Below are positions 10,701-16,700 of a stretch of DNA of 64,000 nt, piece after piece. Source of the DNA: Lingula anatina (Eukaryota; Animalia; Brachiopoda); assembly GCA_051362555.1 (NCBI GenBank), contig CM120643.1:14916644-14980643 (forward strand), given 5' to 3'. Numbering within the stretch: the first letter of the stretch is position 1; every line of letters begins with the position of its first letter. The notes beneath the pieces were generated by a model. The model saw only the letters and a program-made list of their open reading frames with translations. It was not told the origin of the DNA and ran no database searches. The translations under genes were made by a program, and so were the position numbers.

Positions 10701-13700
10701 CAACTATCTTTATTTAAAAAATAAGATATCACAGTCAACAGTCATTCAGATTTTTCTTGCTGACAACTGATCCAAATACTAGATTCTCTTTTTTTTTTAA
10801 CATAATGGTTTAATTTGAACTGGTCCTACTTTGAAATTTCACAGGTTGAGGAAATGATCACATCTGCAGATATGGTTTTAAGAAGAGATTTCAATGAGAG
10901 GATGGAGGCAGCTAACTTTATATCAATTAATAGTTGCAGATGAGAGTATAGATATTGCTGTCTTCAAGAAGCTCCTGAAGCTTCAGAATTTTCGTGCTTT
11001 GAGGCACCGTAAAAAGTAATTTAAGTTATCACACTTTAAAGAACTATTTTTCACATGGATTGTTTGTGAAATTGGTCTATGATACGCACCACCTATCCAT
11101 ACACATTTTAAGGTTGATGGTAATATAAAATAGGGAAATCAAGTTATAAAAATGAAAGCTGTTGTGTTATGAGTTTCAGATGTCAAGAGCTGTTTTCAAA
11201 GCACTTGTTTTGTCATGTCTGTCAAAAATTTGTTTCATCAATTTTTGTGGGAACAACATGTTGCACCTTAGTGCTTACTGGTGAGTTGAGCAGAAAAAGG
11301 ATTACAATTTTACAAAATTTATTGATAGTTTTTATTATTAAATAAGAAAAAAAATTATTTTTCCGAAGGACCCCATTTTTTTCTAAAGGACCCCATTTTA
11401 CAATGCTAGTGGGGTCCCAAGGACTCCACTTACAAACTGCCCAGCGCAAACACTGGTTTACCCAATATAAAAACATCAGAGACAAATCCAACATGTCATA
11501 CAGTCCAATAGCTATAAAAGACGCTAATAATGATTTGGACACCTGTCCAAGTGCCCCATACCCCTGCACAGCCTTGGTCAGTTAAATGGCTCCTTTTATT
11601 TCTTTAATATTGGGATGTTTGTTTTGAATGTCTCTTCAGTAAACCAATGTGGAAGAAGATGCCATCTCAAACTTTAATAAGAAATATCTATCCTTAGTTG
11701 ACTAGCACTCCCCCCTAGATTATGAAACACCAAAATCTCATCATAATACATTTCAAAACATACACATGCCTGTTTATAATTCACATAAGACAGATATTAA
11801 TTGCTATGGAGATTTTTTTCAATATTTGATACAGAGATGCAGCATCAGAAGTATTGATAAGTATCATCAACAGCTTTGCAACTGGTTTAAGATGATTACG
11901 TCCCAAGTTTCTTCATCACATGATGCATTCTGGGTCTTTTTTTTTTTTACCAAGAAAAGATACAGTTATCCTCCATGCTATGTTGTTAACTCCACTCTCT
12001 TTGTTGTTATAACTAACCCTGCATTTGACAATAGTGCAATAAGCCAATAGATATGCCAAATGTACACAGCTGTCCTTTGGGGTATAATCCCTGATTTAGG
12101 TGGAAGCTACCTTCTCTATACTAATGTTTGCAAATTGTGCTGTTTGGAGACAAATGTCATTAATAACAGTGTGTGCTCAAAAAGTGGACTTTCAGTAAAG
12201 ATTTTCTGTAGCAAACTCCAAGCTAAAAATCCTTAGGGATGAATCAAAATAGTTAAACCAGGATCAATTTCAACTGAAAGCATGATAAGTCATTGTAGCC
12301 TAATTGCCATGAATTTAGCATTTGGCTATATTTCACTGTGCTGGAGTGAGCCCTAATGAGTACACGAATCAAAGAAAGTAAAAGAAAAGCAAGTCTAATT
12401 TTTTTCAACAGTTATAAAACAAAACTCTGAATGGGACTACTGAAAATTCTGCACAACTTGCCACACGCAATCTGAATCATGAATATTGTGTCGTAATCTC
12501 TGATAATAAAATGTGTTCTCTGGACTCTGACATCTTTTTTTTTTTTCTTCTACATTTCAATTCCAGTGAACTTTTATTCTCAAAAATTAGGTACTGAAAA
12601 TTCCTAACATCTTATTTTGTCAGTTCTCTTCAAGCCACTACCACACCTTTAAAAGATCCCAGTGTGAGCCAACAACAAGGTTTTGGAGGTAATGTGCATT
12701 ACAATGCAGCATTGTTTTTTTAATTTTATACCTGTAAACAATTTTTAACACTATCATCATCACTGCTACCAATATAATACAGTAAATACTGCATAACTCA
12801 TCACCTTAAGGCTTGTAACCCAAATTTCATGTATAGTATTAGCTGTAACTTGATGAACATTACAAAACTCCCAACCTTCACAAATCATTAACAAATATTC
12901 CAGCCCAAAAGTGTCAGAGTCATATAGTTTATGCATAGATACTCATCACTTACAGAAATATGGATGTTCCATTGCTTCCCTTGCCGTTAATCTCTCTGCG
13001 TGGTCGTACCTCAGTAACTTGTCTAGGAAATCAAGAGCTTCTGGACTAACTAGGTGTTGATTTTCACTGTGGACAAATCTTTCCCAACGTTTTCTTGAAT
13101 GTCTGTGAAAGGAGAGCAAAAACATTGTCTTCAATAAAAATGTGTTAAACACATTGGCAGAATTATATTAACACACTAAAAAAACTAACTGCCATAATAC
13201 GCAATTCCAAAATTTGAGTTGGTTACTAGAAAAATATCAGATTGGTTCTTGATGTCAAAATCAGCCTTTACGCTAATTCCACATTACGTCCCAGGTGATC
13301 ATCATGCCATTTTCCTTAGCAACCATTTGTAAATAAGATATCTGTAACTTTGTTCAACAAGTTAAACATTGATCTTTTTTTAATCAAAAGTTGTCTGTTA
13401 ATGCAATAACCTATACAAACTGGTCAAATCTAAACTCACCTTCCTAAAATATCATTAAACCTAGGATCTAACTCAATTTGATATTTGTCTATGTATTCAT
13501 AAAGCTCTTCTGTTCCTAAGACTTTTGCAATGCGTACAAGCTGTAAAGAGACAACAATTCAATAAGTACAACATAAAATCACCTATGCATTAAAGACAAA
13601 ACAAACTGAGGATAAAAACTGCACTACCAATGATATTCTACATCCATAAACACTTTTTTATTATTCAATATTGAATGATCAAAAGCTACTTTTCAAATAA

Positions 13701-16700
13701 CATTAGTAAATGGAAGCACAGTCTCTTTGCTCGTTTACAAGCTGACTTATCAAACAAATCAAAATCTTGATGACATCTCTCACCTGGTCGTAATTGTCAT
13801 GTCCGTGAAAAAAAGGTTCTTTCCTAAATATCATACTGGCAAACATGCAGCCTAGACTCCACATGTCTAACGAGTAGTCGTACATCTGGAAAAGCATTAA
13901 GAAAGCATTACAAACAAAAGTAGGCTGACTTAAAACCTATGACAGAAGGGAACTTTTCAAATATTAGACACATACTGGAAATCGGTGATTAATTAAGATT
14001 TAAATGCATGCTGAATGAAGAGACTGTGTGGATGACAAAATATTTGAGGACATTTAATCTGATTTCATTAGTTGATAGGGACAGAAATTTTACATATAAA
14101 TATTTAAACAGGTGAACATTATTGGTAGAAGGGACCTCCAGGAAGTCAGTTGCACCTGCCAATGTTGAGTGGAAGATACAGGACAGAGCAGTGACAATAT
14201 AAGATGGTGAAGCACCATTAAATGAGTCAGGGGAGAACACGGCACAAAATTATACAACTCCTACATTAATCAAAGATTATTAGCTTATGGATTGTTCAGG
14301 AAAGAAAATCAAATTCAAATTCATTTATCTTCACCTACCTGGTAATCAAGTAAAAGCTCTGGGCCCTTGAAATACCTAGAGGCTACCCTGACATTATACT
14401 CCTGGCCTGGGTGGTAGAATTCTGCTAACCCCCAGTCAATTAACCTAAGCTGGAACAGAGAGAGAGGAGCAAAACACATTAAACACAATGCTTCCGGGAC
14501 TCACTTTACTACAGGATGCAGTTTTACAGATGATTTTCAGGCCAAAAATTAGTCCTAAATTTTGGTCCACTTAAGTTCTGGAACAATACATAGAAATCCA
14601 GTCAAATAAGTATTGGTCTGACACAGCCAAAATTCCACTCCATTGGACTACAACTGATTTATCGTAGGTCAAAGCAGACTAATTTTGGTGTGAAAGTTAA
14701 AACCAACTTCTGGGCTAAACTGATTTTGTGAAGTAGGCTGGGACTGGTTTCAGCAAAGACTTTTAGTCAAAAGTTTGTCTTAAATTTAAGACTAAAAATT
14801 TAAGTCAACTTTGACCTAACTTCAGTGAAATAATTGGGTCTCTTACTAAAAGTGAAAATTGCAAAGGTTTCAGACTAAAAGAAAATCATCTACTCTGTAG
14901 TGGAATGAGGCTGACCAAAATTCTGTCTCCAATACTTAACTGGCAATAACATCAGTACAGTGAATCTCACTGTGAATATTACACTGAAATTCTGTTCTTT
15001 TTTCTCTTCTCAACTCTAAGCATTTAAAAGAGCTGCCAATAAACAGTAGCAGAGAGTTTGTAAAATTTTGTATGCAGAAGGTTATTTTATCTTTCTAATT
15101 CAGAGATAACACCTTATCAAAAGACAAACACATCGCTTGTTATAATAACAAAGAAAAAAAGAAAAAGATTGGGAGAAAGCCCTGGGTGTACTTACTTTTC
15201 TGTTTTCATGATCTATCATAACATTATGAGGCTTGACATCTCTATGCATGATCCCCATGCTGTGACAGTAATCTAAGGCCTGGAGGAAAACAAACACAGA
15301 CCACTGTTATGTAAATTACCAAAACAAAATAAACATGTCAATTAGAGTGAAAAAAAAATGTCACTGTTCAAAGCATAATAATCCAATGCTTCGGATAATA
15401 TAAGATTCAACATAACATTTAAGCTAAAAGGTCATAAGTGACTGGGTTCCCTTCATTACAATGAGGAAAATGGTTTGAATTATTCTAAAATAAGACCATC
15501 TAATATCCATTACAAACAAGCGGATCAAACCATGAGAGAGAGAGAGAGAGAGAGAGAGAGAGAGAGAGAGAGAGAATGATCCAACTAAATTCAGCAATCC
15601 CATCGAAATATTAAAATAACATATATTAAAATAACATTGTATTTAATATCTATTTTTTCACATTCCGAACTTTATTTTCTAAACATTTCCCATGCGATGT
15701 CTGTGTGGTGCTCAAATACTGCCTGTATATCTTTTTTTCTTATGCGAGTGCAGAGGCAGGCAGTGGCCTTTTGAAATTGTAGGGAATCATGGCCTCTACA
15801 GCCTGTATGATTTTGTCAAGCTAAATCTTTGAACAACTTTTTAAAATCTTATGCCTGCAGGCCACATATTATTGCAGATGTCATCACGGATTTACCGTAC
15901 AGGCATTGTTTGGTAAAGTCATCCAGAAAGTCTTATTTTTGTTATGTACATTTGTATTTGACTATAAACTTTCACTCACCTTCAGTAATTCATATATGTA
16001 GAACCTAATGTCATAATCTGTTAGCGTCTGGTATAATTGCTGGAAGTTAGAAACAATACACTCAATAAACAGATACAAATATATTATATAAAATAATGTA
16101 AATGGAAAAAAATACAGCCATATTTCTGTGCCCTTGTCTTAGAAGAAAAGGACTGACAAATGGCTTTAATTAACCATGTATTATTACCCTTCTCCGATAA
16201 GATTCATTAACAACCACAGAACCTGTTTAATTGAAAGTGAACCTAGTAAAATTCTTTTAAAAATTAATTATTTGGACAATACAAATAATATCAGACTGGT
16301 TTTTGATGTCAAAATTAGTTTAACACTAATTCCACATTACGTCCCAGGTGATCATCACACATTATTTCTCAGTTATCAGGTTCACTCTATTTTCAAATTA
16401 GTTTAAATCCAATAATCTTTAAAGACCTGCACCCACCTTGAAATCTGTGTTGTTCACATGTTCAAATACTAGTGCCGGAGTTCTGGACTGAAAGGTAAAA
16501 ATAACTAATTTATTATCATTTCTATTCTGGAACCCATTATTTTAACCTACAAGTCTAGTTTTTTTTCTTTTATAGGGAAATTTGACAGAACCAATTGTGT
16601 TTTCCGCTAATAAATTAATTCTGAGAGAATACATACCACAGGGTCTTTAACTACTCCAATAAGTGTGATGATATTTGTTCCTCCTCGAAGATTCTCTAAA

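What the first reader, a model, noticed from the sequence alone, without database searches (positions are those of the whole stretch)
13231..16367. Two SNORD82-like box C/D snoRNAs hidden in CK2 alpha introns
Seen: a ~70-nt block is conserved between introns 4 and 9 while the flanks are unrelated. On the host-sense strand each copy has box C (RTGATGA), box D (CTGA) and a terminal stem that differs between copies but still pairs. Both share GGGACGTAAT-G-TGGA. Known: human SNORD82 (hosted in nucleolin) uses GGGACUUAAU upstream of D' to methylate 18S A1678. Non-vertebrate 18S reads GAUUACGUCCC there, which this guide matches. Inference: the D'+5 rule picks the equivalent A, so a conserved guide has moved to a new host gene (CK2 alpha) and duplicated within it.
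Basis: partly seen in the sequence, partly recalled or inferred. Interest (0 to 1): 0.8.

Follow-up and report, generated by a model that had tools for sequence, protein, structure and literature searches.

The report
Three snoRNAs in brachiopod CK2 introns
Three introns of a brachiopod's casein kinase 2 gene each hold what is likely a small guide RNA of a familiar class: two are predicted to direct a known methylation of 18S ribosomal RNA, and a third, missed at first, is predicted to mark a base two positions away for which I found no mapped methylation.

Summary
Observation confirmed and extended. The window is very likely Lingula anatina. CK2-alpha introns 4 and 9 each carry a box C/D snoRNA-like unit (S1, S2): 61 of 69 columns identical, flanks unrelated, perfect C and D boxes, 8-9-bp terminal stems. 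An internal C'/D' kink-turn-like motif fixes D' as UGGA, so the +5 rule points to the 18S A1678 equivalent, which is methylated in vertebrates and fly. It has the same guide lengthened to 12 nt and a D' (CUUA) two bases further on, so it is predicted to target the U1676 equivalent. That site is not listed as methylated in the maps I checked (nine species). Rfam finds none of the three, so they work like SNORD82 but are not filed as members. 'Moved to a new host' has no known direction: the guide lies in nucleolin in zebrafish and is intergenic in fly, and such mobility is well documented. Expression, methylation and Lingula's own 18S were not tested. The scan's earlier notes hold nothing like this. 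Verdict: real, mostly ordinary; S3 is the only modest novelty.

The parts
16283..16367 (-). S1: box C/D snoRNA candidate in coding intron 4. Stem 16367-16360/16290-16283; box C 16358-16352; guide 16345-16336; D' UGGA 16334-16331; inner stem 16330-16325/16319-16314; C' 16312-16306; box D 16294-16291
   Evidence: box D lies 251 nt from the 3' splice site
13228..13316 (-). S2: paralog of S1 in coding intron 9. Box C 13305-13299; guide 13292-13283; D' 13281-13278; inner stem 13277-13272/13265-13260; C' 13258-13252; box D 13240-13237; 9-bp terminal stem
   Evidence: box D lies 134 nt from the 3' splice site
11837..11928 (-). Box C 11919-11913; 12-nt guide 11904-11893; D' CUUA 11891-11888; GCAA-loop hairpin 11884-11871; C' 11870-11864; box D 11848-11845; terminal stem 7 of 8 pairs
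16040..16436 (-). CK2-alpha coding intron 4 (397 nt), host of S1
13103..13439 (-). CK2-alpha coding intron 9 (337 nt), host of S2
8428..12953 (-). CK2-alpha coding intron 10 (4526 nt), host of S3
7783..17686 (-). CK2-alpha coding region, 12 coding exons, 384 aa (3' end approximate); a 5' UTR exon lies beyond 17975
   Evidence: all 11 coding introns seen as splice joints in RNA reads; exon 10 is 92-100% identical to the 120 listed homologues, whose named members are mostly casein kinase II alpha

Best explanation
S1, S2 and S3 are likely intron-encoded box C/D snoRNAs, released from CK2-alpha introns after splicing, that are predicted to guide ribose methylation of 18S rRNA: S1 and S2 at the A1678 equivalent, S3 at the U1676 equivalent. 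Shown in sequence and reads: the boxes, stems, host-sense orientation, splicing of the host introns, and the complementarity to the 18S motif found in other eukaryotes. Inferred from established box C/D biology: trimming to the C/D kink-turn, loading of the core proteins with fibrillarin, and methylation of the base paired to the fifth nucleotide upstream of D'. S1 and S2 are redundant paralogs from a duplication between introns. S3 is likely an old relative whose D' box sits two bases further from the same guide. Its duplex overlaps that of S1/S2 over 10 nt, so the two methylations would have to occur one after the other.
For: Perfect C and D boxes and terminal stems in all three. The 7 substitutions and 1 gap between S1 and S2 spare the guide, D', C' and D. 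All 12 named internal pairs hold in both copies, with one two-sided change (C-G/U-A) and two wobble changes; slid controls pair 22-42%. UGGA and UUGACAU can form tandem G-A pairs flanked by G-C and U-A pairs, closed by a 6-bp stem and a 3-nt bulge, which is a kink-turn layout (read from sequence; pairs counted) and fixes the register. A scan of every guide position against 17 long rDNA loci gave one perfect helix shared by all loci per unit: 10 bp for S1/S2, 12 bp for S3. Duplex energies are -16.9 and -21.0 kcal/mol. Am1678 is mapped in human, mouse, Xenopus and fly (PMC11014333 Table S4) and zebrafish. Zebrafish SNORD6 uses CUUA as its guiding D' box. Zebrafish guides need 9 or more pairs from position 2 (PMC7668251 passage); all three units meet this.
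Against: No Rfam snoRNA model matches. The 18S loci were fetched with a pattern that contained the target, so 17 of 17 loci holding the site is by construction; none is known to be Lingula. With two sequences the covariation test has no power: 249 of 500 shuffles reach the observed values. UGGA was not found among D' boxes in the zebrafish table. Folding z-scores are modest: -1.9 (S2), -2.3 (S1), -1.3 (S3). S3 is not detectably related to S1/S2 beyond boxes and guide: 12 bits, E 4.9; 126 and 39 of 500 shuffles reach the D'-to-D alignment score. S3 lies 3417 nt from the used 3' splice site. No methylation at the U1676 equivalent in the seven species of Table S4 or the zebrafish list; planarian 18S position 1611 scores 0.02-0.25. 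In planarian the A itself (1613) scores 0.66-0.81 on the 3'-end measure but about 0 on the 5'-end measure, and was not called. In Arabidopsis, some sites predicted from guides were not confirmed by mapping (PMC8053127 passage).
Confidence: 0.72

Rival explanations
1. S1 and S2 are A1678 guides as above, but S3 does not create a new site: it is a redundant or dual-specificity guide that also, or only, methylates the A, using a slipped D' register.
For: D' guides that select two sites, at +5/+6 or one base apart (yeast snR48, Arabidopsis SnoR1), are known and are linked to degenerate C'/D' boxes (PMC8053127 passages). S3's D' lacks the G of the tandem G-A pair. No Um at this U is mapped in the species checked.
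Against: S3's guide has gained exactly the two bases needed to keep pairing from position 2 upstream of CUUA (12 bp). Its C' is near consensus. CUUA is a guiding D' in zebrafish SNORD6.
Confidence: 0.15
2. S3 is a decaying or poorly processed copy with no function; only S1 and S2 act.
For: It lies far from the used 3' splice site in a 4.5-kb intron that holds a transposon-like insert. It has the weakest fold (z -1.3).
Against: Boxes C, D and C', the terminal stem and a perfect 12-bp guide are all intact, although no similarity to S1/S2 remains elsewhere. This suggests long-lasting selection.
Confidence: 0.09
3. The 70-nt block is a dispersed repeat or a splicing element, and its snoRNA look is chance.
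For: No whole genome was available to count copies. No Rfam match.
Against: Only two copies in 64 kb, both host-sense in one gene. Conservation ends at boxes C and D. Changes keep the pairing. Frames with an rRNA antisense are expected 0.11 times per shuffled window against 3 seen.
Confidence: 0.04

Closest known systems
SNORD82 / U82 (vertebrates; zebrafish copy in ncl, PMC7668251 Supplemental Data 4; human and Xenopus entries in PMC6984369 supplement)
   Same: Box C/D snoRNA of about 65-75 nt, intronic, single guide upstream of D' with one unpaired spacer base, target 18S A1678. The guide differs only at the base that matches the vertebrate versus invertebrate 18S difference.
   Different: Host is CK2-alpha, not nucleolin. 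D'/C' are UGGA/UUGACAU instead of CUGA/AUGAUGU. S1/S2 have a 6-bp inner stem. No Rfam match. S3 points to a different base.
Drosophila snoRNA:CD41 (Me18S-A1806, FBgn0086074; PMC11014333 Tables S3, S4, S6)
   Same: Guides the same 18S adenosine (Am1806 = human A1678, mapped with high confidence); 73 nt; boxes AUGAUGA and CUGA.
   Different: Intergenic with its own promoter, single gene. I did not see its sequence, so no sequence comparison was made.
Duplicated snoRNAs with changed specificity (SNORA58-like and others in PMC6984369; Barneche et al. 2001 on Arabidopsis isoforms predicting new sites, title seen only, in the reference list of PMC8053127)
   Same: Copies move between introns of one gene, and small sequence changes alter guide specificity; this is the model for S3.
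   Different: Common origin of S3 with S1/S2 is inferred, not shown, and the predicted site has not been mapped.

Membership tests
Box C/D methylation-guide snoRNAs | Box C (RUGAUGA) near the 5' end and box D (CUGA) near the 3' end | tested here: met
   Perfect in S1, S2, S3, spanning 68, 69 and 75 nt
Box C/D methylation-guide snoRNAs | Short terminal stem closing the C/D kink-turn | tested here: met
   8 bp (S1), 9 bp with 1-nt offset (S2), 7 of 8 pairs (S3)
Box C/D methylation-guide snoRNAs | Internal C'/D' boxes, often degenerate | tested here: met
   UGGA/UUGACAU with mutually pairing changes in S1/S2; CUUA/UUGAUGA in S3
Box C/D methylation-guide snoRNAs | Nine or more pairs to an rRNA target starting at position 2 upstream of D or D' | tested here: met
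   10 bp (S1/S2) and 12 bp (S3), all Watson-Crick, to 18S of other eukaryotes
Box C/D methylation-guide snoRNAs | Guide matches the organism's own rRNA | not tested
Box C/D methylation-guide snoRNAs | Accumulates as a stable small RNA bound to fibrillarin and core proteins | not testable with these tools
   The 9 runs listed were polyA, oligo-dT or unspecified RNA-Seq
Box C/D methylation-guide snoRNAs | The predicted nucleotide is 2'-O-methylated | not testable with these tools
   Needs RiboMeth-seq or equivalent in Lingula
SNORD82 / U82 | Reaches the gathering score of the Rfam family model | tested here: not met
   No Rfam hit at gathering score in the window and no match on these units at E<=10. 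That Rfam holds a SNORD82 model is recalled, not shown by a call
SNORD82 / U82 | D' guide directed at 18S A1678 by the +5 rule | tested here: met
   Met for S1 and S2; not met for S3, whose +5 base is the U two positions upstream
SNORD82 / U82 | Encoded in a nucleolin intron (vertebrate arrangement) | tested here: not met
   Host is CK2-alpha; the fly counterpart is intergenic, so the host is not fixed across animals
SNORD82 / U82 | Sequence similarity outside boxes and guide | tested here: inconclusive
   By eye against the zebrafish sequence shown: only three bases after box C agree; no computed alignment

The most novel reading that the evidence does not exclude
A SNORD82-type guide multiplied inside one brachiopod host gene, and one copy (S3) shifted its D' box by two bases while extending its antisense. 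This would create a 2'-O-methyl uridine at the 18S U1676 equivalent, unmapped in the species checked, next to the conserved Am1678. One pre-mRNA would then deliver competing guides for one 12-nt rRNA stretch.
Probability: 0.45. Interest if true: 0.45.

Novelty: new member of a known kind. Interest (0 to 1): 0.3.

Why it matters
The finding extends the A1678 guide to Lophotrochozoa by prediction and adds a third genomic setting for it (nucleolin intron, intergenic, CK2-alpha introns), in line with known snoRNA mobility. It shows that Rfam misses such invertebrate guides. S3, if active, is a clean natural example of a new rRNA modification arising by a two-base slip of a D' box, and one RiboMeth-seq run would test it. 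None of this changes how box C/D snoRNAs are understood.

Tried and rejected
Expression: no indexed RNA holder was listed. Seven of the nine raw-read runs were laid (X1, X2, X3, X4, X5, X7, X8). They are polyA, oligo-dT or unspecified libraries and show depth 0-1.7 in the bins over S1, S2 and S3; this is no evidence for or against small RNAs. Second guides upstream of box D: no conserved rRNA match in 40 loci of 4 kb or more, of which at least L034 and L075 hold complete 18S, 5.8S and 28S; snRNA and tRNA targets were not searched. Extra pairing of the spacers near the target: not better than shuffles, 14-90 of 100 as good. Orthologous CK2-alpha introns from other animals: none found in prokaryote genome or viral contig collections (the one locus was bacterial), so cross-species conservation is untested. 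18S in viral contigs: 0 matches. More paralogs in the window: a model from S1/S2 found none (next best E 0.1, without box C or guide), and a relaxed scan gave only a weak extra frame at 14334-14227 with a poor box C, rejected. An alternative last exon just after S3 (acceptor at 11770): no splice joint listed, left open. Literature: searches for snoRNA with casein kinase host, Lingula or brachiopod snoRNA, mollusc or annelid snoRNA and names of the U site listed nothing describing these RNAs or a Um at that site, judged from listings only. The library lacks most subscription papers, and five supplement files of PMC7668251, six archives of PMC11649923 and bioRxiv supplements were not seen. Earlier notes of this scan: no look-alike by sequence, place or words.
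Full report
Setting. The neighbouring gene's exon (18797-19102) is 99% identical to Lingula anatina CCDC113; the next species are at 73% or less. The window is therefore very likely from this brachiopod. A CK2-alpha gene lies on the minus strand with 12 coding exons and 384 aa. All 11 coding introns, plus a 5' UTR intron, appear as splice joints in RNA reads.

Observation. Two units lie host-sense in coding introns 4 and 9: S1 (box C to D 16358-16291) and S2 (13305-13237). 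They match in 61 of 69 columns, with flanks at 18 of 50 on either side and no significant flank alignment (269 of 300 shuffles as good). Terminal stems are 8 and 9 bp and differ in sequence. The 10-nt guide occurs exactly three times in the window. The third copy sits in its own frame, S3 (11919-11845, intron 10), with perfect boxes C and D and 7 of 8 stem pairs. In 200 shuffled windows, C..D frames with a 10-nt antisense to conserved rRNA occur 0.11 times per window, against 3 here (that script's strict stem count gave S3 only 2 because it stops at the first mismatch).

Which box is D'. UGGA is not a consensus D', and it was not found in the zebrafish guide table. Read with UUGACAU downstream, however, it forms a kink-turn layout: two tandem G-A pairs, then G-C, U-A and G-U pairs, a 3-nt U bulge and a 6-bp closing stem. 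Between S1 and S2 that stem shows one two-sided change (U-A/C-G) and one wobble change. All 12 named pairs hold in both copies, against 22-42% for slid controls, but with two sequences the shuffle control is uninformative (249 of 500). I take D' = UGGA as well supported by anatomy, not by statistics. In S3, D' is CUUA and C' is UUGAUGA; zebrafish SNORD6 guides from a CUUA D' box.

Targets. I fetched 101 rDNA loci from metagenomes with a pattern that included the target site, so presence of the site in them is by construction, and none is known to be Lingula. What is not by construction: scanning every possible guide position against 17 long loci gave only one perfect helix shared by all loci per unit, 10 bp for S1/S2 and 12 bp for S3, each ending one base before D'. 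In the complete 18S of L075 the +5 base is A1625 for S1/S2 and U1623 for S3. The A lies 25 nt before the C1703 equivalent, so it is human A1678, and the U is U1676. No conserved target was found upstream of box D and no significant extra pairing.

What is known. Table S4 of PMC11014333 (supplement part 5 read) lists Am1678 in human, mouse, Xenopus and fly, not in yeast, Arabidopsis or Dictyostelium, and has no row for the U. Its Table S6 gives the fly guide as intergenic. Zebrafish SNORD82 guides Am1678 from D' and lies in ncl (PMC7668251 supplement rows); 1676 is absent from that list. In planarian, the only spiralian map I found, the A scores 0.66-0.81 on one measure and about 0 on the other and was not called; the U scores 0.02-0.25 (PMC11649923 passages and Dataset EV2 rows). 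Mobility of snoRNAs between introns and genes is established (PMC3511168 abstract and Discussion; PMC6984369 passages). Some D' guides select two sites, including sites one base apart, and some predicted sites fail on mapping (PMC8053127 passages). Rfam gives no match on any of the three units, so I say they work like SNORD82 and do not file them as members.

Mechanism. Shown: anatomy, orientation, host splicing, complementarity. Inferred from established biology: release from the spliced intron, trimming to the terminal kink-turn, assembly with fibrillarin and methylation at +5. S1 and S2 are redundant copies. S3 shares only boxes and guide with them (12 bits, E 4.9), so common origin is inferred from the shared guide and shared host. 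Its two extra guide bases keep pairing in register with a D' two bases further on, which argues for selection on the U as target. My odds: S1/S2 real A1678 guides about 0.88; S3 a real snoRNA about 0.85; S3 methylating the U about 0.6.

Expression. Seven runs were laid. All are polyA, oligo-dT or unspecified mRNA-type libraries, with depth 0-1.7 over the three units, which says nothing about small RNAs. Sense reads at depth 3.7-7 in X1 and X2 lie just downstream of S3 (11474-11821). A candidate acceptor at 11770 lies 75 nt after box D, but no joint was listed, so an alternative last exon stays open.

Verdict. The feature is real and belongs to a well-known class. Searches of the held literature listed no description of these RNAs or of the U site (listings only), and the scan's earlier notes hold no look-alike. 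New members of a known kind; interest 0.3.

Noticed in passing
window 9632-11454: A 1.8-kb element inside CK2-alpha intron 10 with short CAGTG-type inverted ends, a 7-8-bp target duplication and an ORF with a C17orf113-type zinc finger (PF25431). Reads of X1 and X2 skip it, so it is likely a polymorphic hAT-like DNA transposon.
   Followed up: partly
window 11474-11821 (minus strand): Sense reads at depth 3.7-7 in X1 and X2 start just downstream of S3. A candidate acceptor at 11770 would give a short alternative C-terminus, but no splice joint was listed.
   Followed up: partly
window 13894/13885: Alternative acceptor for coding exon 8 that adds 9 nt (3 codons) in the kinase domain; the skipped stretch ends in TG rather than AG. 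Seen in 10, 3, 5 and 4 reads of X1, X2, X3, X8.
   Followed up: no
window 14084-14288: Intron 7 stretch with depth up to 16 in X1 and loose ends at 14288 in X3: a polymorphic insertion, a repeat expressed elsewhere or a cryptic exon.
   Followed up: no
window 18071-18391: CK2-alpha (minus) and CCDC113 (plus) are head to head: many CK2-alpha reads end near 18071 and an ATG-initiated exon begins near 18391, suggesting a shared promoter.
   Followed up: no
window 6854-17970: Run X7 differs from the window at many fixed sites while X1, X4 and X5 mostly agree: a divergent population or cryptic species under the same label.
   Followed up: no
window 47097-47996: Broken reverse-transcriptase remnant of a LINE-like element (weak RVT_1 match).
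   Followed up: partly
window 51767-52692: Repeated unit that encodes a similar short peptide several times on the minus strand, possibly tandemly duplicated exons.
   Followed up: no
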